NCBI GenBank assembly: GCA_011911785.1
Contig: GCA_011911785.1_4084.1
Direction: 5' to 3' (one strand)
Length of the DNA: 64,000 nucleotides
DNA from: a phage
Positions 1,258 to 42,650 of this stretch are shown here, piece after piece. How positions within the stretch are numbered: position 1 is the first letter of the stretch; every line of letters begins with the position of its first letter. The notes beneath the pieces are model-generated. The model was given only the letters and a program-made list of their open reading frames with translations, had not been told where the DNA came from and did not search any database. Position numbers and translations under genes: made by a program.

Positions 1258-1380
1258 ATGATTGCAATGTTAGAAGAAGATTGGGGTGTTTCTGAACAAG
1301 GAACCGACGAATATCAAGTTCCAGAATACAAGCCAAAAGGCTTCTGGGAAAGTCTGCGTGATTGGTTGATGGGAGAATAA
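1258..1380 (+). CDS. Small ORF (40 aa), hypothetical
   Basis: ATG at 1258 directly after GGAGG; translation MIAMLEEDWGVSEQGTDEYQVPEYKPKGFWESLRDWLMGE; below the length cut-off of the ORF track. Confidence 0.3.
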   Translation: MIAMLEEDWGVSEQGTDEYQVPEYKPKGFWESLRDWLMGE

Positions 1381-1382
1381 GA

Positions 1383-2495
1383 ATGAAAAAATACCTTGTT
1401 GGTGGATACTGCCGCGACCGTCTAATGGGCATTCGTGCAAAGGACAAAGATTATGTCATTGTTGGTGCAACTGAATCTGATATAAAATACTTAGAAAGTA
1501 TTGGATATAAACAGGTTGGTAAAGATTTTCCAGTTTATCTAAGCCCAGAAGGTAACGAACACGCATTAGCCCGTACTGAACGAAAAACTGGTACTGGATA
1601 CGGTGGCTTCGAAGTGGATACAAAAGGTGTAACACTGGAACAAGATTTGTATCGTCGTGATCTTACAATTAATGCAATCGCGTATGATCCAGTACTGCAA
1701 ATTCACATCGACCCATACGGTGGTAAAGCTGATATCAAGAATAAAGTACTACGTCATGTATCCGAACACTTCAAAGAAGATCCATTGCGTGTATTACGTC
1801 TAGCTCGCTTTGCTACGCGTTATTCTGATTTCTCTATACACGAGACTACTGAAGCACTTGCAATCGATATGGTAGCGTCTGGTGAGCTAAATCACCTTGT
1901 TCCAGACCGTGTTTATGTTGAATTTGAAAAAGCACTGTCAGAAGAAAAGCCAGCTAAGTTCCTTAAAACACTAAGTAAGTTTGGTTACTATGAAAAAGCA
2001 TTTAATGCTACATTAACCAAAAAGTCATTGGAACTCATTGATCATATCTCTGATAATTGTACTGAAGCATATAAGCCATATTTCTTATGGTCTGTGCTTC
2101 TTGAGAAAGAAGAAGTTGGCGAGGATTCAGTACTGAATGGTGCTATTAAAATGCCCGTTAAGTACGTTAAATTCAGTAATTACATCAAACGTTTCCGTGA
2201 TGATATCAAGGCATTCCGTAAAAAGACCCCAAATGAAATGGGACAATTATTACTGGATATGAATATCAAGAATAACGGCGGTGAAGAATTCCTTTACAAA
2301 GTACTGGAATATTTTATTCTACGTAAAGAGATTGATTTAGACCTTGAAGATTTAATCATTAAGGTATATGATCGTTACACTGATGTAGTACTTCCAGATA
2401 TTCAACAACTGGTAAAAGACGGTGAGTTAGAAGCATCTGAAATCCGTGATTTTGTTTCAGTTTTACGTTGTGAAGCAATTCAACAAATGTTTTAA
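1383..2495 (+). CDS. cca: CCA-adding tRNA nucleotidyltransferase (class II)
   Basis: N-terminal signature VGGYCRDRLMGIRAKDKDYVIV (GGxxRDxLxG...DxD); ATG at 1383 after GGGAGA; ORF track 1362..2495. Confidence 0.9.
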   Translation: MKKYLVGGYCRDRLMGIRAKDKDYVIVGATESDIKYLESIGYKQVGKDFPVYLSPEGNEHALARTERKTGTGYGGFEVDTKGVTLEQDLYRRDLTINAIAYDPVLQIHIDPYGGKADIKNKVLRHVSEHFKEDPLRVLRLARFATRYSDFSIHETTEALAIDMVASGELNHLVPDRVYVEFEKALSEEKPAKFLKTLSKFGYYEKAFNATLTKKSLELIDHISDNCTEAYKPYFLWSVLLEKEEVGEDSVLNGAIKMPVKYVKFSNYIKRFRDDIKAFRKKTPNEMGQLLLDMNIKNNGGEEFLYKVLEYFILRKEIDLDLEDLIIKVYDRYTDVVLPDIQQLVKDGELEASEIRDFVSVLRCEAIQQMF

Positions 2496-2501
2496 AACTC
2501 T

Positions 2502-2529
2502 GGGACAAGAGAACGACTTCTGATATAAT
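2502..2529 (+). promoter_or_regulatory. Sigma70-like promoter (GGGACA - 16 nt - TATAAT with TGn)
   Basis: gggaca at 2502-2507, tataat at 2524-2529, 40 bp upstream of ATG 2569. Confidence 0.5.
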
Positions 2530-2568
2530 AATTGTATCTGGGCATCATTGCTATTAAGAGATAAGATT

Positions 2569-2998
2569 ATGCGTTATAGTTGTGGCATTATATTTTATCG
2601 TGATGGTCAGATACTTGTTGGACACACAACACGGACAGAAGCATTGGGATTTACCAAAAGGTAAAACCGAGGGCAATGAAACATTTGCTGAAGCTGCTGT
2701 TCGTGAGTGCTATGAAGAAACAGGATTTGAGATTGATGAAAAGGATCTTCTCTTATTAGGTGATGTATCATACAGGAAAGGGAAAAGATTAGTTTTATTT
2801 TTCTATACAGCTAAATACAAACCCGAACCGGATGAACTGAAGTGTAACAGTACTTATACCAATCGATATGGTAAAAGCCATCCAGAATTGGATAAATTCA
2901 TGTACATTGATGTTCAAGATTGTCAAAAGTATTTGACCGAACGAATGTGTAACAGTATAATTAAAGCTGTTAAATTGTTTCAAAAAAATAAAGGATAG
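2569..2998 (+). CDS. Nudix hydrolase, reading frame split by an apparent +1 frameshift near 2630-2660
   Basis: Frame 1 from ATG 2569 encodes MRYSCGIIFYRDGQILVGHTT... and stops at 2662; frame 2 (ORF track 2582..2998) continues with HWDLPKGKTEGNETFAEAAVRECYEETG = Nudix box Gx5Ex7REUxEExGU. Confidence 0.75.
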
Positions 2999-3002
2999 TT
3001 AT

Positions 3003-3251
3003 ATGAAAGTGAAAATTTATGGTCGCACGACTGGTTGTAATTTCTGTGATACAGCAAAAGCAATTTGTGAGAACAATTCATTTGAAATGGATTTTATCGA
3101 TGTGGTTTCTGAAGGTATTGATGGTGCTAAACTATCAGAAATTTGCGGTGAGCCAGTTCGTCAAGTTCCACAAATTTTCGTAAATGATGAGTATGTTCCT
3201 GGTGGATGTACTGGTTTTGTTAACGGGCTAAAAGAAGGTCGCTGGAACTAA
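3003..3251 (+). CDS. nrdC: Glutaredoxin/thioredoxin-like protein (T4 NrdC-like)
   Basis: 82 aa, N-terminal CxxC motif GCNFC and overall layout like T4 glutaredoxin (from memory). Confidence 0.75.
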   Translation: MKVKIYGRTTGCNFCDTAKAICENNSFEMDFIDVVSEGIDGAKLSEICGEPVRQVPQIFVNDEYVPGGCTGFVNGLKEGRWN

Positions 3252-3490
3252 TGAATATCGATAAGGTATCATCACGAGCACGTGCATTGGCTGACAGTTT
3301 GGGAGTTAAATTTGAAACTCCAGATATCAACCAATCAAAACAAAAAGCTCAAAAGAAAATTCATGAAATGAAAGAATACACATCAAGACGTGAAGAATAC
3401 GATGCTGCTATTTCTCACATTATTGAAGTGTTTAGTAAAGATGATATTTTAGCATTTATTGCTTCACATGAGGTTGTAAAAAACCCCTAA
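3251..3490 (+). CDS. Hypothetical protein (79 aa)
   Basis: ORF track; start overlaps stop of upstream gene. Confidence 0.5.
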   Translation: MNIDKVSSRARALADSLGVKFETPDINQSKQKAQKKIHEMKEYTSRREEYDAAISHIIEVFSKDDILAFIASHEVVKNP

Positions 3491-3540
3491 ATAATATTGA
3501 AGAACAACAAGTTCTTCTTAACAATTTGGGAGATACTATT

Positions 3541-3783
3541 ATGCTCAGTTTTCGTGAACAATTAGCAAAAGGTCAATTTCAGACTAAAGCTCAAACAAAT
3601 ATTCCTAAAAAATCTGCATTCTTAGGAACAATTACGGAAGATGGTTATTGTGACTTCAATCCACCAGAAGATAGCTGGTATATTGAAAAAGACACAAAAC
3701 GTAGTAATAGACTTCACAAAAGTACAATAGCAAGAAAGCATCGAAAAGAATTGAAGAAAATTCGTTTCGGTGAAGAAGAATAA
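3541..3783 (+). CDS. Hypothetical basic protein
   Basis: ORF track 3526..3783; ATG at 3541 after GGGAGA. Confidence 0.5.
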   Translation: MLSFREQLAKGQFQTKAQTNIPKKSAFLGTITEDGYCDFNPPEDSWYIEKDTKRSNRLHKSTIARKHRKELKKIRFGEEE

Positions 3784-3795
3784 CCTAATAATATA

Positions 3796-3827
3796 AAGGA
3801 CTTGAGATTATCGAGTCCTTTTCTTTT
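3796..3827 (+). terminator. Rho-independent terminator
   Basis: Hairpin aaggacttga/tcgagtcctt (one G-U) with 5-nt loop followed by ttcttttc. Confidence 0.6.
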
Positions 3828-3838
3828 CGGAGCACTAA

Positions 3839-4315
3839 ATGATACATGAACATAGCGGCAATCTGTTTGATTTATTCAGTACTGTAACTGATGATCATAC
3901 AGCATTACATATTATAGCTCATGGTTGTAACGCACAGGGTAAGATGGGTTCCGGTTTTGCAAAAGAACTCAGAATGCAGTACCCAAAGGCATATGATGAT
4001 TATAAAGAATATGAAAAGAGAATGGGTTTTCTAAGAACCGGACAAATTGCATATTCAGCAATTAATGATGATTTGATTATCGCAAACTGCATTACTCAAA
4101 AATGGTACGGAACTGATGGTGCAAAATACGTAAGCTATGATGCCATTGACGACGTTTTCATGCATTTGAATTTTTTCTGTAAAATTGAACGAAATGTTCA
4201 TGTACACTTTCCGAAAATTGGAGCCGATTTGGGCGGTGGTAACTGGAACGTTATCAAAGAAATCATTGACCACAGGCTGGTTAATGCTGAAAAACATTTA
4301 TATATTCTCAAATAA
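3839..4315 (+). CDS. Macro-domain (ADP-ribose binding/processing) protein
   Basis: Motif HIIAHGCNAQGKMGSGFAKEL resembles the macro-domain NxxGxMGxGxA signature. Confidence 0.55.
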   Translation: MIHEHSGNLFDLFSTVTDDHTALHIIAHGCNAQGKMGSGFAKELRMQYPKAYDDYKEYEKRMGFLRTGQIAYSAINDDLIIANCITQKWYGTDGAKYVSYDAIDDVFMHLNFFCKIERNVHVHFPKIGADLGGGNWNVIKEIIDHRLVNAEKHLYILK

Positions 4316-4334
4316 ACAAAAGGACTTGACAAAA

Positions 4335-4643
4335 ATGACTATTACCGTTAAACTACTAAACATCAACAACGTTGGCCCAGTACTAGCAGTTCTACAAACC
4401 GATGCTCCAGAAGCAGTAGTAGTTAACTACCCAGCACAGCTAGGTACTGACGAAAAAGGTGAAATCATTCTACGTGATTATCTAGAATTTATTAGTTCAG
4501 AAAAAGGTGTTATTTTCTTCAAATCTAACATCATCAGTATCAGTGATGCAAACCCTGCACTGGTTGATGCTTATGTTGAAGCAATTAAGACTCTAGAAGA
4601 TAAGCCAGCGTTGATTGTCCCTGACAACAAAATCATCCTATAA
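4335..4643 (+). CDS. Hypothetical protein (~102 aa)
   Basis: ORF track 4185..4643 overlaps the macro gene; first non-overlapping ATG at 4335 after AAAGGA. Confidence 0.5.
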   Translation: MTITVKLLNINNVGPVLAVLQTDAPEAVVVNYPAQLGTDEKGEIILRDYLEFISSEKGVIFFKSNIISISDANPALVDAYVEAIKTLEDKPALIVPDNKIIL

Positions 4644-11735: not shown

Positions 11736-13849
<2,114 letters not shown>

Positions 13850-17814: not shown

Positions 17815-18159
17815 ATGATACCACAACCCACTAACAGCACTGAATTTCAAAATGAAGTACTTATAAAAGTTAAAGAAGTACATGAATCGGACGCTGAAAT
17901 CACTGACAGAATGCTTCTGATGTCTATTTTTGAAAACTTCAGAACTGGTGGTGGTTTGAGGCTTAGTAAGTATGGATTTATGATTTGTGAAGAAAATAAT
18001 CTTTATGAATTTACAAAAATCCCCTTGCTAAGAGAGTTCAAAAGCTCTATAATATTTACATCGCTTGATAGAATATGTAGAAGTCCTTATTATGTTGATG
18101 GCTACTACATATATCTCTCCGATGCAATGGTAGTTACTGAATTAACATTGTGTCGGTGA
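17815..18159 (+). CDS. Hypothetical protein (114 aa)
   Basis: ORF track. Confidence 0.5.
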   Translation: MIPQPTNSTEFQNEVLIKVKEVHESDAEITDRMLLMSIFENFRTGGGLRLSKYGFMICEENNLYEFTKIPLLREFKSSIIFTSLDRICRSPYYVDGYYIYLSDAMVVTELTLCR

Positions 18160-38195: not shown

Positions 38196-39293
38196 ATGAA
38201 TAATTATACTATATATCGCAGTGATGGAAGCGTTTATGCTTCCATTCCAAACAACGTTATCCTTGGTCCTAACCAACCAGGTACTAACCCAGTTCCTATT
38301 AACTTAGTTGGGCGTAATAAGGTTGGTTATGGTCAAGCATGGAACGAAAACTTTCTACACTTAGTTGAGCATTTTAGTGGTCCATCTGCACCACGTGGTA
38401 GTGTTAAAGGACAAATTTGGTATAAAAACACTGGTAACATTGGTGAACTACTTATTTCTCTAGTAGATAACGCTCGTCAACCAATAGATACTGCTTCTGA
38501 AGCAGATTGGGCATCAATCCCAATGATCACAATTTTCAATACCATCCCAGATGGCGAAAGTAGTGTTATGGGTCGTATGGTTTTGACAAATAACGGTGAT
38601 TCACTCCGTGTTTTGATGAAAAACAAAGAATGGCGTGAAATTCAAACATCTCGTCCTGAAAACAAAGAATATTCATCACTATTGGATATAAACTATGATT
38701 TAGGTAAAAAATATATTGAATTTACCCAAACTGAAAGTACTAAGACACTTGCATATTTCAACTTAGGTGGTGGTTCTAAGGTAGATCCAGACAACTGGAC
38801 ATCATTTAGTAATGGTAATGGTGTTTTCCAATTCGGAAGTAACTATTTCTATGATTTGAAGATTATGATTCGTGAAGTACAGGATAGTACTGGTGAAGTT
38901 GTTTCTTTACCATTCAACTCCAAGACATTTATCATTAAAGGTCAATTCTATATTGACAATGAAGGTGCTTTTGTGCCAGGTTCTATACCATGTAGTGAGA
39001 TTCCAGACCCACGTCGAATTACAAGTCTGGAAGTTATTAAAGATGTTATTACCAGTTCACAACCAACTTGGGATGTTAATATGGTAGTTAATGGTGTGGA
39101 CCCAACAATTCCAAATCCAGGTGGAATGACGAAGACTGATTATGAAGCATGGGTTATCAACTCACTCAATACTAATAAACATTTAGGTTTCCGTGTTGAT
39201 GGTTCAATTTCCGGTTTAGGAACTGGTCAAAGTGTTAAGCTTCAGGCTTCAGTACTGCTTAATATAACTGGTATTCCTATTATTGGTGTGTAA
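38196..39293 (+). CDS. Hypothetical structural/fibre-associated protein (365 aa)
   Basis: ORF track; AGGAG SD. Confidence 0.45.
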   Translation: MNNYTIYRSDGSVYASIPNNVILGPNQPGTNPVPINLVGRNKVGYGQAWNENFLHLVEHFSGPSAPRGSVKGQIWYKNTGNIGELLISLVDNARQPIDTASEADWASIPMITIFNTIPDGESSVMGRMVLTNNGDSLRVLMKNKEWREIQTSRPENKEYSSLLDINYDLGKKYIEFTQTESTKTLAYFNLGGGSKVDPDNWTSFSNGNGVFQFGSNYFYDLKIMIREVQDSTGEVVSLPFNSKTFIIKGQFYIDNEGAFVPGSIPCSEIPDPRRITSLEVIKDVITSSQPTWDVNMVVNGVDPTIPNPGGMTKTDYEAWVINSLNTNKHLGFRVDGSISGLGTGQSVKLQASVLLNITGIPIIGV

Positions 39294-39305
39294 TACAAAA
39301 GAAAA

Positions 39306-39329
39306 AGGAGCCATTGGCTCCTTTTTTTT
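39306..39329. terminator. Bidirectional rho-independent terminator
   Basis: Hairpin ggagcc-att-ggctcc with A-run upstream and T8 downstream, between convergent genes. Confidence 0.75.
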
Positions 39330-39792
39330 AATATCTATATGGTAGACTATTGACAAATTGTGTACCAGCGTTTATACTTTCCCATAAAGAATAAAAATCT
39401 TTCATCAAATTAACATTTAATAATGTATTTTTAGCTCCAGGGTGAAGAGGTTTAGGCCATGAGCCAATTTTAACCCAAGCATATCCAGAGCTTTCCTTAT
39501 TGAGAATAGGAACAAACTCATTTTCAACAACAACAACGAAAGAATAATATTTGAACTTACCATTCTTAGTACAAAATACATCAAAGGGTATAATATCAAT
39601 TATATCAGGTAACGAATCTCCCAATTCTTCTCGTATTTCACGATGCAAAGCTTGCAAAGGGGATTCGTTGTATTCGAGTTTTCCACCAACAAAAGCCCAG
39701 TTGTTTGAATAGGTACTGCTTTCAGATCTAAGATTGAGCATCATATGACCAGTACTTTTAGATAAAAATATTGCTCCTACTGCCTCATTCAT
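39328..39792 (-). CDS. Nudix hydrolase (second copy, 154 aa)
   Basis: Nudix box GGKLEYNESPLQALHREIREELG. Confidence 0.8.
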   Translation of the reverse strand: MNEAVGAIFLSKSTGHMMLNLRSESSTYSNNWAFVGGKLEYNESPLQALHREIREELGDSLPDIIDIIPFDVFCTKNGKFKYYSFVVVVENEFVPILNKESSGYAWVKIGSWPKPLHPGAKNTLLNVNLMKDFYSLWESINAGTQFVNSLPYRY

Positions 39793-39801
39793 ACATCCTC
39801 C

Positions 39802-41145
39802 TTATTTGTCAGTGAATGATATCTTCCAATATCCCTGACGGTATTGCGACATAATACTCTTATGCCATTTGAATTTTTCATTGTATCTATAATAGTGACT
39901 ATCTTGACGATTGTAAACATAATTAAGTACTGAAGACGGTTCAATTAGTTCAGCACCTTCATTTGTTATTTTGAACAAATAATTTGGTGGAATAACTGTG
40001 TCTTTGTAAATTAAATCTCTTGCACTATTATTTACATAATATTGTTCAGGTATAGCTGAATACAATTCTGAATCTTTGGATATCAACGCTATGATAGAGT
40101 AATCGACAACATAATTACTACTATCCAATTGAACAACAATCTTGTTTGCCTTATCTTCGTGTCCCATTGATATTATAGTTCCACGCAAAGGATTACTTTC
40201 TTCGATTGCTTGTTGGAATTTAATACCGAGTTTCTTATCTTTGTATTCAGGCTCTAAGTACTGAATATATTTCTCCCAAGAATATATACCACCGTTGGAT
40301 GTTCTCTCACTCATACTTTGACTTACCAATGTAAGGACATAAGTATCTGCGTTTTTATCCGATGCTTCTGTTATTTCTTCAACTTTGATGCATAAATTTT
40401 TAGGAGTGAATACATCAGTAATTATATCCTGATAGTTTCCTATTTCAAAATCCAATTCATCACGACCACTTTCTATATTAGTTGTTATCTGTTGTATAAG
40501 CTTTGGCTTTTCAACGATAGCAGGTAATGATAACCATATAGTTGTTTCAAATGTAAGAACCATAATATCAAGTTCAGTATCAGTTCCTTGTGGAAATCCA
40601 CGAGTACTGAATTGACAGTCAATTAATTCCACATCACTTTGTGCCGTCCAGTCTAATGGGTTATCAGATAGTTGCAATTGAACACTTGGAGCAAACAATG
40701 TACTGATTTGCTCATATAATTCCATTTTTGTTTGCAGTTGTGTAACCCATATGTTTAAATCAAATGTAAATGTCCAAGGTACAGGGTTATGTCTTGTTAT
40801 TTTATACTGCTTATCCAACTCAGGAGTGAATTCATTTGGTGCAGGGGACTTATTTGTCCCCATAATAATAGTTTCGTTCGCATTTGAACGAATACTTTTA
40901 CGATCCAATTTCAATTGATTCACACTAATAGTCATGATCGGTGCAGTAGGCATTACGTTCTCACTGTTACCATTGATAACAGCAGCAGCCAAACGTGAAA
41001 TATCTGCATATCTACATGGAACTTGCTTGTATCTTGGTTTACCTTCGTCATCAACTCCATTTTGTACTTGAAACCCACCAAAAATCCTGATAAGATGTTT
41101 CAGTACTCGACGAAATTGACCATCATAGTAGTATTCTACTTTCAT
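39802..41145 (-). CDS. Tail sheath stabiliser/tail completion protein, T4 gp15-like
   Basis: N-terminus YYYDGQFRRVLKHLIRIF...KQVPCRYA resembles T4 gp15 N-terminus as recalled from memory. Confidence 0.55.
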   Translation of the reverse strand: MKVEYYYDGQFRRVLKHLIRIFGGFQVQNGVDDEGKPRYKQVPCRYADISRLAAAVINGNSENVMPTAPIMTISVNQLKLDRKSIRSNANETIIMGTNKSPAPNEFTPELDKQYKITRHNPVPWTFTFDLNIWVTQLQTKMELYEQISTLFAPSVQLQLSDNPLDWTAQSDVELIDCQFSTRGFPQGTDTELDIMVLTFETTIWLSLPAIVEKPKLIQQITTNIESGRDELDFEIGNYQDIITDVFTPKNLCIKVEEITEASDKNADTYVLTLVSQSMSERTSNGGIYSWEKYIQYLEPEYKDKKLGIKFQQAIEESNPLRGTIISMGHEDKANKIVVQLDSSNYVVDYSIIALISKDSELYSAIPEQYYVNNSARDLIYKDTVIPPNYLFKITNEGAELIEPSSVLNYVYNRQDSHYYRYNEKFKWHKSIMSQYRQGYWKISFTDK

Positions 41146-42650
41146 TCTTTATCCCCTTTTGCACGGTATAGAGTGTTTGGTTTTGCCGCGTCGTGTAATG
41201 GGACACGATTAGGACTGTTAACGAACTCGGTTAGGGCTAAATCTGCACCTTCCCACGGTTTACGTCCACCATAATCAAAGATTACCCAAGACTTTTTAAC
41301 TTCACTGTATTCCCAAAGAGTTACAGGGTTGTAATCAGTGCGATAGAAGTATTCACCATCAGTTGGATCAGATGGGAACGTGTCCCCTTCTTGCACAGTA
41401 CCGCGAGCAGGTGGAATTTTAGGTCTTGAATCTTGTTGCGAGTCTATGTTACCATATACACTGTTAGAACTGAAAGGTAAGTTAACATGTGTATCTGGTG
41501 GAACTTGCCATGTACCATCTAAGTACTGGTACATTGTTGGTTTTTCATATTGAATGTAAAAATCCTCAGCATTTTTCGGTGGAACGTCACCAGTTGAGTA
41601 TTCAACGTCACAATTAAGCCACTTTTTGAGAGATTTGTCATATTGATACAGGGAATATCCAGTAACATCTGAATCATTCTCTTTATAGAAGAAATCACCG
41701 TCAGATGGTTTACGTGGAAACGTTGTTCCATACGGAACTGAAACATTTTCCCAAGAATTGTTGACTTTCTCTTTCAGTACTGGTAAAGTTTTCTTCAAGA
41801 AGTACATTTTGTTAGCTGGTTCTTCTGGGAAGTCATATCCATTAAGAACAAACTTTGACAAATCGGTTGTATCTGGTCTATCATCGTATATATGTTCATT
41901 TGTGAAGTGGATGTAAGGGACTTCATCATCAGCTTGCATTATAATACGGTTCATGATATCCATTTCGTTATCATAACTGCTGTTTGGTGAAGAACCATTG
42001 GAACCACTGTTACCATTACCATTATTTGGGTCATCTGGGTTGTCTGGATAATCATTATTAGTAAGTAAGTCCGCGTACTCAGGTGAATCGGTAATAGGTT
42101 TGACACGAATTTTGTAAATGTGATGTTGCCATGTTGCAGAGTAACCTTCAGATGTTCTAAAGCCGTCCTGAACTACGTAAAAACGGTTTAAACCTGAATC
42201 TTTACCAACAACATCGAAATCACGAAGGTTTGGAAGTTCAATTACATCACCAGGCATAATTTTTCTTCCCAATCGCTGCATCATTGTGTTATAATGAACT
42301 GTAATGTCCATTGTGTTGAAGTTAAAGAACAACCCAGGAATTTTTAAATCAGGTGTTGCTTCTTGTACTTGATAAACACAACTAAGTGTGATAGCCTCTA
42401 GATTGTAACTACGATTTGAGGTTTCACCAAAAATTAGGTCACCAATACTTGACGCAGCGGAACCATCAGTGATATAATCACCACCGTAAGAATAGTCGTT
42501 AGGAGTTGATGATGGTTTAGCACCGACAAAGGCATAAAGCCACATGTCTACGCCACCAATATTGTATTGTTCAGCAATGGCAGAATCTATGAATTTATAA
42601 TCATTGGTTCTACCTTTTTTCCACATTCTGTATGCCATTTTGTTCTCCAA
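41142..42650 (-). CDS. Hypothetical neck/tail-associated structural protein (502 aa)
   Basis: ORF track; translationally coupled upstream of gp15-like gene. Confidence 0.4.
   Translation of the reverse strand: MENKMAYRMWKKGRTNDYKFIDSAIAEQYNIGGVDMWLYAFVGAKPSSTPNDYSYGGDYITDGSAASSIGDLIFGETSNRSYNLEAITLSCVYQVQEATPDLKIPGLFFNFNTMDITVHYNTMMQRLGRKIMPGDVIELPNLRDFDVVGKDSGLNRFYVVQDGFRTSEGYSATWQHHIYKIRVKPITDSPEYADLLTNNDYPDNPDDPNNGNGNSGSNGSSPNSSYDNEMDIMNRIIMQADDEVPYIHFTNEHIYDDRPDTTDLSKFVLNGYDFPEEPANKMYFLKKTLPVLKEKVNNSWENVSVPYGTTFPRKPSDGDFFYKENDSDVTGYSLYQYDKSLKKWLNCDVEYSTGDVPPKNAEDFYIQYEKPTMYQYLDGTWQVPPDTHVNLPFSSNSVYGNIDSQQDSRPKIPPARGTVQEGDTFPSDPTDGEYFYRTDYNPVTLWEYSEVKKSWVIFDYGGRKPWEGADLALTEFVNSPNRVPLHDAAKPNTLYRAKGDKE

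What the first reader, a model, noticed from the sequence alone, without database searches (positions are those of the whole stretch)
39328..39792. Second, intact Nudix hydrolase embedded in the structural region
An intact Nudix gene (GGKLEYNESPLQALHREIREELG) sits between the neck/tail-completion genes and a bidirectional terminator, while the other Nudix copy at 2569-2998 is frame-split. Two divergent Nudix genes suggest distinct substrates, or functional replacement of the damaged copy.
Basis: partly seen in the sequence, partly recalled or inferred. Interest (0 to 1): 0.45.

Follow-up and report, generated by a model that had tools for sequence, protein, structure and literature searches.

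The report
Late-operon Nudix hydrolase of jumbo coliphage
This is an intact, already annotated Nudix hydrolase gene that follows the tail-sheath-stabiliser gene in RaK2-like jumbo phages; it is ordinary, but the other "broken" Nudix gene is kept by selection and may be read by a +1 ribosomal frameshift.

Summary
Window 39328-39792 (-) is a 154-aa ORF with a complete Nudix box, a confident Nudix fold and strong purifying selection. It lies 9 nt behind a gp15-like tail-sheath-stabiliser gene and ends in a two-way terminator hairpin. The window is an Asteriusvirus jumbo coliphage, 99.5% identical to phage A4, where the identical protein is already annotated as "NUDIX domain protein".

The gp15-like/Nudix pair is conserved in RaK2, CBB, Vibrio 2.275.O and PA5oct. 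Three virion proteomes detect neighbouring gene products but not this protein.

Its nearest solved relatives are enterobacterial NudI, then MutT-like enzymes and RppH. It passes no subfamily threshold. My best guess is a soluble, late-made (d)NTP pyrophosphohydrolase.

"Replacement of a damaged copy" is not supported. The other copy (2569-2998) is a T4 NudE.1 orthologue of a different family, and both genes coexist in relatives where that copy is unsplit. Its 1-nt frame split is conserved in the nine Asteriusvirus genomes I read (the window among them) and in one metagenome contig. Both halves are under purifying selection in their own frames. The junction, ACA-CGG-A, holds the phage's rarest codon. 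That points to a programmed +1 frameshift, which is untested.

The parts
39328..39792 (-). Target gene: 154-aa Nudix hydrolase of the phrog_1198 family. It is 100% identical to A4_576 / USL83652.1, annotated 'NUDIX domain protein'.
   Evidence: ORF. Pfam PF00293 E 3.2e-15. phrog_1198 E 2.3e-42. tblastn 100% identity to A4 and annotation. AlphaFold2 mean pLDDT 91.7. dN/dS 0.053 against phAPEC6 gp249.
39619..39684 (-). Nudix box GKLEYNESPLQALHREIREELG (residues 37-58) with E43, R51, E52, E55 and E56.
   Evidence: Regex scan of the six-frame translation. These residues are invariant in alignment A1.
39796..39801 (-). Shine-Dalgarno GGAGGA, 3 nt before the ATG. It directly abuts the TAA stop of the upstream gp15-like gene, and the intergenic gap is 9 nt.
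   Evidence: Read from the sequence and ORF coordinates.
39300..39329 (.). Two-way intrinsic terminator: A-rich run, GGAGCC-ATT-GGCTCC hairpin, then T8. The T-run overlaps the Nudix stop codon.
   Evidence: Terminator scan. Folds of -18.2 and -17.1 kcal/mol, z -4.95 and -5.48, with 0 of 200 shuffles as stable.
39802..41145 (-). Upstream gene of the same operon: T4 gp15-like tail sheath stabiliser / completion protein (447 aa).
   Evidence: PF16724 E 1.3e-22. A4_577 annotation. Detected in virions of phAPEC6 (gp248), PA5oct and fENko-Kae01.
41142..42650 (-). First gene of the run: virion structural protein (502 aa). It overlaps the gp15-like gene by 4 nt.
   Evidence: phrog_11591 E 7.6e-254. 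A4_578 annotation.
38196..39293 (+). Convergent virion structural gene that ends at the shared terminator.
   Evidence: phrog_14394 E 1.3e-209. The phAPEC6 orthologue gp250c was found in virions.
2569..2631 (+). Other Nudix gene (T4 NudE.1 orthologue), N-terminal 21 codons in frame A: MRYSCGIIFYRDGQILVGHTT. If read on in frame A it ends at TAA 2662-2664.
   Evidence: dN/dS 0.056 in frame A against 1.17 and 1.89 in the other two frames.
2626..2635 (+). Candidate +1 shift site ACA ACA C GGA. The zero-frame codon after Thr-Thr is CGG (2632-2634). Skipping C2632 gives GHTT-GQKHWDLPKGK, as in the unsplit orthologues.
   Evidence: Alignment with unsplit GAP32, phiKp_21, EJP2, fENko, BF, Yen9-04 and CBB. 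ACAACACGGACA is invariant in the split genomes read. CGG makes up 2 of 20,266 codons.
2633..2998 (+). The same gene, C-terminal part in frame B (+1). It holds the Nudix box GKTEGNETFAEAAVRECYEETG at 2660-2725.
   Evidence: Pairwise dN/dS 0.04-0.07 in frame B. The joined protein matches phrog_1185 end to end at E 4.3e-52 and GAP32 NudE at 78% identity over residues 1-141.

Best explanation
The ORF encodes an active, soluble Nudix pyrophosphohydrolase that is not part of the virion. It is co-transcribed and probably translationally linked with the late tail-completion genes (502-aa virion protein, then gp15-like protein, then Nudix), and transcription ends at the shared hairpin.

By fold and sequence it belongs to the small single-domain MutT/NudI/NudG class. 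I therefore expect it to split a nucleoside triphosphate into NMP and PPi on Mg2+ held by E52, E55, E56 and E100. The substrate is most likely a pyrimidine or otherwise non-canonical (d)NTP. Its role would be to clean or re-balance the nucleotide pool while the 350-kb genomes are still being replicated and packaged.

Shown here: an intact catalytic motif, the fold, purifying selection, the conserved operon position, and absence from virion proteomes. Inferred: late timing, (d)NTP substrates and the physiological role.
For: The Nudix box is complete and invariant. Further family-invariant residues are F80, E92, F93, P95, N98, E100, G103, W106, H117 and G119.

The best NCBIfam hits are Nudix-family hydrolase, MutT, NudI and NudG models.

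dN/dS is 0.053 at pS 0.66 against phAPEC6.

The gene directly follows the gp15-like gene in A4, RaK2, CBB, Vibrio 2.275.O, PA5oct, fENko-Kae01 and phAPEC6. The gap is 9-13 nt where both genes are fully annotated. PA5oct's Nudix is annotated from a later start, with the protein match beginning about 8 nt after the gp15-like stop. A strong GGAGGA Shine-Dalgarno sequence abuts the upstream stop codon.

Neighbouring gene products are detected in virions by mass spectrometry, and this protein is not, in phAPEC6 (PMC7247149 Table 1), PA5oct and fENko-Kae01.

Distant members of the same family (32-37% identity, same C-terminal motif) lie among DNA and nucleotide-metabolism genes. In phiRSL1 the neighbours are topoisomerase IB and a dCMP-deaminase-like gene; in BcepSauron a deaminase lies nearby.
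Against: No subfamily assignment passes. The MutT, NudI, NudG and RppH equivalog models all score far below their cut-offs, at 18-36 bits against 95-259. Nudix substrate range is notoriously hard to read from sequence.

The best sequence match among solved structures is the RNA pyrophosphohydrolase BdRppH at E 1.2e-6, and Dcp2 Nudix domains score about 1e-5.

Late expression is inferred from gene order only. I found no transcript data for this gene.

Failure to detect a 17-kDa protein in virion mass spectrometry does not exclude a few packaged copies.

The deaminase neighbourhood is seen in only two distant genomes.
Confidence: 0.45

Rival explanations
1. It is an RNA 5'-end pyrophosphohydrolase or decapping enzyme of the RppH / BdRppH / Dcp2 type. 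Made late, it would convert 5'-triphosphate or nucleotide-capped RNA to 5'-monophosphate and so speed up decay of host or early and middle phage transcripts. The NudE.1-type copy would do related work at another time, much as poxviruses carry two Nudix decapping enzymes.
Against: These matches are carried mainly by the Nudix box (query residues 8-59). The RppH equivalog scores are 16-25 bits against cut-offs of 116-259. NudI is clearly closer in both structural searches. No RNA-binding extension is present; the protein is a bare 154-aa domain.
Confidence: 0.2
2. It is an ADP-ribose / NAD-derivative hydrolase used against NAD- or ADPr-based host defence. It might be carried into the cell with the virion because it is encoded among morphogenesis genes.
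Against: The protein was not detected in three virion proteomes that do detect neighbouring gene products. The residue 16 positions after the box is T75, not the Pro typical of ADP-ribose pyrophosphatases. No SQPWPFPxS (NADH) motif and no Tyr at +16-18 (ApnA) is present. These signatures come from my own knowledge of Dunn et al. 1999 and were read against the sequence. The phage already has a NudE.1-type Nudix two genes upstream of a Macro-domain gene, which fits this role better.
Confidence: 0.15
3. It has a role in tail or neck assembly itself, as a chaperone-like or nucleotide-dependent partner of the gp15-like protein. That would explain why the two genes have stayed adjacent from coliphages to PA5oct.
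For: The gp15-like/Nudix adjacency persists down to 54% protein identity across several genera.
Against: The full catalytic set is invariant, which argues for enzymatic use. More distant family members are not next to tail genes. The protein is absent from virion proteomes. Operon adjacency can simply reflect shared late timing.
Confidence: 0.05

Closest known systems
NudI (YfaO) of Salmonella, Klebsiella and E. coli: pyrimidine dNTP pyrophosphohydrolase
   Different: The target scores only 34.2 bits on the NudI equivalog model, against a cut-off of 95. It has GGK where NudI has GGG. It has a family-specific P-L-H-P-G-A motif and a roughly 30-residue C-terminal helix and tail that NudI lacks.
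E. coli MutT (8-oxo-dGTP diphosphatase)
   Same: The architecture is the same. K38, E43, R51, E52, E55, E56 and E100 align with MutT K39, E44, R52, E53, E56, E57 and E98.
   Different: The MutT models score about 35 bits against cut-offs of 148 and 98. The position of MutT N119, which reads 8-oxo-G, aligns with A120 (indicative only).
T4 NudE.1 (gene e.1) and its orthologue at window 2569-2998
   Same: Both are phage Nudix hydrolases carried in the same genome.
   Different: They belong to different families (phrog_1185 and phrog_1198) and share 31% identity over the box region only. The contexts differ: CCA-adding enzyme, glutaredoxin and Macro domain for one, a tail operon for the other. NudE.1 acts on FAD, Ap3A, ADP-ribose and NAD-RNA caps (PMC9503650; bioRxiv 10.1101/2024.04.04.588121).
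RppH / BdRppH RNA pyrophosphohydrolases
   Different: The target is far below every RppH equivalog cut-off. The similarity is concentrated in the Nudix box.
Programmed +1 ribosomal frameshifts at a slowly decoded codon (E. coli prfB CUU-UGA-C; yeast Ty1 CUU-AGG-C; Ty3 GCG-AGU-U). This applies to the other Nudix copy only.
   Same: There are two overlapping frames in +1 relation whose fusion restores the full-length protein. The shift site is invariant. The zero-frame A-site codon is the rarest in the genome.
   Different: The P-site codon ACA cannot re-pair in the +1 frame (CAC), so only a Ty3-like non-slipping mechanism would fit. No Shine-Dalgarno-like stimulator is visible upstream, and no significant downstream structure was found. 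There is no experimental evidence. The named examples are cited from my own knowledge.

Membership tests
Nudix hydrolase superfamily (PF00293) | Nudix box GX5EX7REUXEEXGU with the metal-binding Glu residues | tested here: met
   G37-D59 fits the pattern, except that the last position is D rather than a hydrophobic residue. E43, R51, E52, E55 and E56 are invariant in 27 homologues.
Nudix hydrolase superfamily (PF00293) | Profile score above Pfam's gathering threshold | tested here: met
   56.8 bits against 21.1, E 3.2e-15, covering residues 4-123.
Nudix hydrolase superfamily (PF00293) | Alpha/beta/alpha Nudix fold | tested here: met
Nudix hydrolase superfamily (PF00293) | Pyrophosphohydrolase activity on an NDP-X substrate | not testable with these tools
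   Needs an enzyme assay.
MutT 8-oxo-dGTP diphosphatase (NF008044 / TIGR00586) | Equivalog model score at or above the curated cut-off | tested here: not met
   35.8 against 148 bits and 35.3 against 97.9 bits.
NudI nucleoside triphosphatase (NF012016) | Equivalog model score at or above the curated cut-off | tested here: not met
   34.2 against 95 bits, although NudI is the closest solved structure.
NudG pyrimidine (d)NTP diphosphatase (NF007834) | Equivalog model score at or above the curated cut-off | tested here: not met
   32.9 against 156 bits.
RppH RNA pyrophosphohydrolase (NF001934-NF001938) | Equivalog model score at or above the curated cut-off | tested here: not met
   15.6-24.8 bits against cut-offs of 116-259.
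ADP-ribose pyrophosphatase / NADH pyrophosphatase / ApnA hydrolase Nudix subfamilies | Signature residues downstream of the box: Pro at +16; SQPWPFPxS; Tyr at +16-18 (Dunn et al. 1999, from my own knowledge) | tested here: not met
   Residues 75-77 are T-K-N. The only nearby Pro is P69 (+10). No SQPWPFPxS is present (sequence).
T4 NudE.1 family (phrog_1185) | Best PHROG match is phrog_1185 | tested here: not met
   The target matches phrog_1198 (E 2.3e-42), and phrog_1185 is not among its hits. The other copy matches phrog_1185 at E 4.3e-52.
Virion (structural) protein | Detected in purified particles by mass spectrometry | tested here: not met
   phAPEC6 gp249 is absent from the 62-protein virion list, while gp248, gp250c, gp251c and gp253 are present. 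The PA5oct and fENko-Kae01 records mark neighbouring genes, not the Nudix, as MS-identified. No data exist for this exact phage.
Programmed +1 ribosomal frameshift (other copy, 2569-2998) | Two ORFs in +1 relation whose fusion restores a full-length homologue | tested here: met
   The joined protein aligns end to end with the unsplit GAP32 NudE (78% identity, residues 1-141) and with phrog_1185.
Programmed +1 ribosomal frameshift (other copy, 2569-2998) | Shift site conserved, and both parts under purifying selection in their own frames | tested here: met
   ACAACACGGACA is identical in the window, A4, 121Q, UE-S1, Turkey5, Ecwhy_1, phAPEC6, JNE01, CMSTMSU and one metagenome contig, while flanking synonymous sites vary. 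dN/dS is 0.056 for the N part in frame A and 0.04-0.07 pairwise for the C part in frame B. It is above 1 in the wrong frames.
Programmed +1 ribosomal frameshift (other copy, 2569-2998) | Slowly decoded zero-frame codon at the A site | tested here: met
   CGG is the rarest sense codon: 2 of 20,266 codons in 52 heuristically called genes, and 0 of 17,055 codons in the 27 longest ORFs. The CGG trinucleotide itself occurs 489 times.
Programmed +1 ribosomal frameshift (other copy, 2569-2998) | P-site tRNA can re-pair in the +1 frame, or a known stimulator is present | tested here: not met
   ACA shifts to CAC, which gives no re-pairing. No Shine-Dalgarno-like element is seen upstream. Downstream folds are not significant (z -0.4 to -2.0).
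Programmed +1 ribosomal frameshift (other copy, 2569-2998) | The trans-frame protein is made | not testable with these tools
   Needs mass spectrometry of infected cells or a reporter assay.

The most novel reading that the evidence does not exclude
In Asteriusvirus the two Nudix genes are both in use, and the NudE.1-type copy is made only through a conserved programmed +1 ribosomal frameshift at ACA-CGG-A. Here the ribosome stalls on the phage's rarest codon and resumes at GGA. Output of this NAD/ADPr/cap-directed Nudix would then depend on decoding of CGG by the host's minor tRNA-Arg(CCG), which would act as a translational gauge. The late-operon copy would provide a separate, constitutive NTP-directed activity. 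A +1 frameshift of the non-re-pairing (Ty3-like) type has not, to my knowledge, been described in a phage metabolic gene.
Probability: 0.4. Interest if true: 0.6.

Novelty: already known. Interest (0 to 1): 0.3.

Why it matters
The gene itself is a routine annotation: "MutT/NUDIX hydrolase" in every RaK2-like jumbo phage genome. Its worth lies in three modest points.

First, it is a core gene of this phage lineage. It is locked behind the tail-sheath-stabiliser gene from coliphages to Pseudomonas phage PA5oct, yet it was not detected in particles, so it marks a late, non-structural enzymatic need that nobody has tested.

Second, it shows that these phages keep two Nudix enzymes of different families in different expression contexts. 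This is a phage parallel to the paired Nudix enzymes of large eukaryotic DNA viruses.

That split is conserved across most of the genus (all but EJP2 among the genomes read) and maintained by selection, at the phage's rarest codon. It is a cheap and directly testable candidate for a new programmed +1 frameshift.

Tried and rejected
T4-type late promoter motif TATAAATA: 2 matches in 64 kb against 8.2 expected, and none near the operon. The late timing therefore rests on gene order only. The sigma-70-like scan was no better than shuffled sequence, 21 against 17.6.

tRNA scan of the window, looking for a possible suppressor or quadruplet-reading tRNA: none found.

Downstream RNA structure as a frameshift stimulator: not significant and not conserved.

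Independent initiation of the C-terminal part: the in-frame ATG at 2603 and GTG at 2582 have no purine-rich Shine-Dalgarno sequence upstream (read). Re-initiation after the frame-A stop would lose the WDLPKG strand. I rate this less likely but have not excluded it.

Sequencing error as the cause of the split: rejected. The same extra base appears in nine phage sequences (the window and eight independently sequenced GenBank genomes) and one metagenome contig.

Pseudogene decay: rejected on dN/dS.

Metagenome and IMG/VR pattern scans for more split junctions gave only one new true example plus 121Q itself. L039 and L042 are unrelated chance matches.

Literature: nothing on this gene in the RaK2 or PA5oct papers, and no supplementary tables are held. 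No paper links a frameshift to Asteriusvirus Nudix genes.

The afdb50 fold library was not available.

Full report
**Origin of the window.** The 4-kb stretch around the finding is 99.5% identical to Escherichia phage A4 (ON286972, genus Asteriusvirus, 355 kb). It is 76-78% identical to about 30 other jumbo coliphages, including 121Q, PBECO4 and phAPEC6. In A4 the identical protein (tblastn 100%) is annotated A4_576 "NUDIX domain protein". Relatives call it "MutT/NUDIX hydrolase". The object is therefore already annotated, though I found no functional study of it.

**Check of the observation.** ORF 39328..39792 on the minus strand encodes 154 aa.
- It matches Pfam NUDIX at E 3.2e-15, 56.8 bits against a cut-off of 21.1.
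- It matches phrog_1198 at E 2.3e-42.
- The box G37-D59 fits GX5EX7REUXEEXGU. G36, G37, E43, R51, E52, E55 and E56 are invariant among 27 homologues down to 39% identity. So are F80, E92, F93, P95, N98, E100, G103, W106, H117 and G119.
- dN/dS against phAPEC6 gp249 is 0.053 at pS 0.66, so the gene is under strong purifying selection.
- AlphaFold2 gives a confident Nudix fold (mean pLDDT 91.7, pTM 0.85).

**Surroundings.**
- The ATG lies 9 nt after the TAA of a 447-aa gene that matches the T4 gp15 tail-sheath-stabiliser family (PF16724, E 1.3e-22). A GGAGGA Shine-Dalgarno sequence abuts that stop codon.
- The gp15-like gene overlaps by 4 nt the 502-aa virion protein gene upstream (phrog_11591). 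The three genes form one tight minus-strand run, 42650 to 39328.
- The 34-nt gap to the convergent virion gene 38196..39293 holds a GGAGCC-AUU-GGCUCC hairpin flanked by an A-run and a T8-run. It folds on both strands at -18.2 and -17.1 kcal/mol, z about -5, and none of 200 shuffles is as stable. The "bidirectional terminator" is real as a sequence feature.
- I found no recognisable promoter that would date the operon.

**Conservation of the arrangement.** The order virion protein, gp15-like, Nudix recurs in RaK2, CBB, Vibrio phage 2.275.O, PA5oct, fENko-Kae01 and phAPEC6. Protein identity falls to 54% across these phages. The gap between the gp15-like gene and the Nudix gene is 9-13 nt where both are fully annotated. 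PA5oct's Nudix is annotated from a later start, and the protein match there begins about 8 nt after the gp15-like stop. Homologues in the large protein collection come almost only from phage-like contigs, many of 300-380 kb. More distant family members (32-37% identity) share the C-terminal motif EF.P.LN.E..G..W...P.HPG but are not next to tail genes:
- In phiRSL1 the gene sits between topoisomerase IB and homospermidine synthase, three genes before a dCMP-deaminase-like gene.
- In BcepSauron it lies two genes before a deaminase.
- In SCTP-2 it lies near a terminase gene.

**Is it a virion protein?** Published and deposited virion proteomics say no, as far as they go.
- In phAPEC6, gp248 (gp15-like), gp250c, gp251c and gp253 are among the 62 virion proteins. 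gp249, the Nudix, is not (PMC7247149 Table 1).
- In PA5oct, three upstream genes and a downstream tail-fibre gene carry an ESI-MS/MS note, and the Nudix does not.
- In fENko-Kae01 the gp15-like protein and the protein upstream of it are "identified with LC-MS/MS", and the Nudix is not.

**What kind of Nudix enzyme is it?**
- By sequence against solved structures, the best hits are BdRppH (1.2e-6), NudI (1.5e-6), NudG (5.5e-6), MutT and Dcp2. These matches lie mostly over the box region.
- NCBIfam equivalog models for MutT, NudI, NudG and RppH all hit but score far below their cut-offs. I do not file it in any of these subfamilies.
- The downstream signatures of ADP-ribose, NADH and ApnA hydrolases are absent. 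These signatures come from my own knowledge and were checked against the sequence.
- NudI is described as a pyrimidine dNTP pyrophosphohydrolase (PMC11288057).
- Together with the deaminase and DNA-gene neighbourhoods of distant members, this makes a MutT/NudI-class (d)NTP pyrophosphohydrolase the best guess (0.45). The rivals are an RppH-like RNA 5'-end enzyme (0.2), an ADPr/NAD-derivative hydrolase (0.15) and an assembly role (0.05).

**The other Nudix copy and the "replacement" idea.** Copy 1 (2569-2998, plus strand) is the orthologue of T4 NudE.1.
- The conceptually joined protein matches phrog_1185 end to end (E 4.3e-52). It also matches NudE of T4-like phages and 78% of GAP32 NudE over residues 1-141.
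- It lies directly downstream of a CCA-adding enzyme gene and just upstream of glutaredoxin and Macro-domain genes.
- The two copies share only 31% identity over 58 residues.
- Both genes are present in GAP32, CBB, RaK2 and fENko-Kae01, where copy 1 is unsplit. The late-operon copy therefore did not arise or persist as a substitute.

**The split itself.** Compared with unsplit orthologues (…CAT ACA ACA GGT CAG…), the main Asteriusvirus clade has one extra base: …CAY ACA ACA C GGA CAG….
- The same junction is present in the window, A4, 121Q, UE-S1, Turkey5, Ecwhy_1, phAPEC6, JNE01 and CMSTMSU. CMSTMSU has a further frameshift, and its record is marked UNVERIFIED. One metagenome contig also carries the junction.
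- EJP2, also filed under Asteriusvirus, is unsplit.
- Upstream of the extra base, substitutions are synonymous in frame A: dN/dS is 0.056 there, against 1.17 and 1.89 in the other frames.
- Downstream they are synonymous in frame B: dN/dS is 0.04-0.07 pairwise at pS 0.54-0.70.
- This is not a decaying pseudogene, and it is not a sequencing error.

**Why a +1 frameshift is the leading reading.** The zero-frame codon at the junction is CGG.
- CGG is the rarest sense codon of the phage. It appears 0 times in 17,055 codons of the 27 longest ORFs, and 2 times in 20,266 codons of 52 heuristically called genes. Both of those lie in the last 13 codons of a gene.
- The trinucleotide CGG itself occurs 489 times, so the avoidance is at the codon level.
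- The simplest reading is a programmed +1 ribosomal frameshift at ACA-CGG-A: a stall on a hungry codon, with translation resuming at GGA.

Against this, ACA cannot re-pair in the +1 frame, and I found no stimulatory element. Two separately made polypeptides remain possible, but no Shine-Dalgarno sequence precedes the frame-B starts. I found no paper on this. I put about 0.4 on a true programmed frameshift.

**Verdict.** The target gene is an ordinary, already annotated, uncharacterised core gene of RaK2-like jumbo phages. The most interesting result lies outside the given coordinates, in the conserved frame split of the NudE.1 orthologue.

Noticed in passing
window 2569-2998 (+), junction 2626-2635: The NudE.1-type Nudix gene carries a 1-nt frame split. 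The split is conserved in the nine Asteriusvirus genomes I read (the window among them) and in one metagenome contig. Both halves are under purifying selection, and the zero-frame codon at the junction (CGG) is the phage's rarest. It is a candidate programmed +1 frameshift at ACA-CGG-A. All deposited annotations instead start the gene at an internal ATG or GTG in frame B.
   Followed up: partly
window-wide codon usage; CGG codons at 13244-13246 and 18154-18156: CGG is almost absent as a codon (2 of 20,266) although the trinucleotide is common (489 occurrences). The only two in-frame uses lie within the last 13 codons of their ORFs (…[16 protein letters not shown] and …TLCR*).
   Followed up: partly
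L030 (Escherichia phage EJP2, OQ411014) 165 to beyond 733: In EJP2 the NudE.1 orthologue is unsplit and appears to run in frame into the downstream glutaredoxin. The CDS is annotated 'glutaredoxin 1' and is 678 nt long. This is either a NudE-Grx fusion or a lost stop codon.
   Followed up: no
window about 1300-1400 compared with L002 (A4) 591-1658: A4 has an extra 1,068-nt gene (A4_535, hypothetical protein) directly upstream of the CCA-adding enzyme gene, and the window lacks it. The BLAST match is broken into two pieces spanning 4,171 nt in A4 against 3,101 nt in the window. This is an indel between otherwise 98-100% identical phages, possibly a mobile gene.
   Followed up: no
window 1362-4315 (+): This is a cluster of a CCA-adding tRNA nucleotidyltransferase, the NudE.1-type Nudix, a glutaredoxin, two small ORFs and a Macro-domain protein. 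It looks like an RNA-repair / NAD-ADPr handling module, conserved in 121Q and A4.
   Followed up: partly
L029 (Klebsiella phage fENko-Kae01) 163-594: The unsplit NudE.1 orthologue and the neighbouring nucleotidyltransferase are flagged 'identified with LC-MS/MS analysis' in that record. The late-operon Nudix of the same phage is not flagged.
   Followed up: no
L007 (PA5oct) 4103-4420: The PA5oct orthologue is annotated from an internal start (105 aa). The protein match begins about 100 nt further upstream, at about 4001, right after the gp15-like gene, so the deposited CDS is probably truncated at its N-terminus.
   Followed up: no
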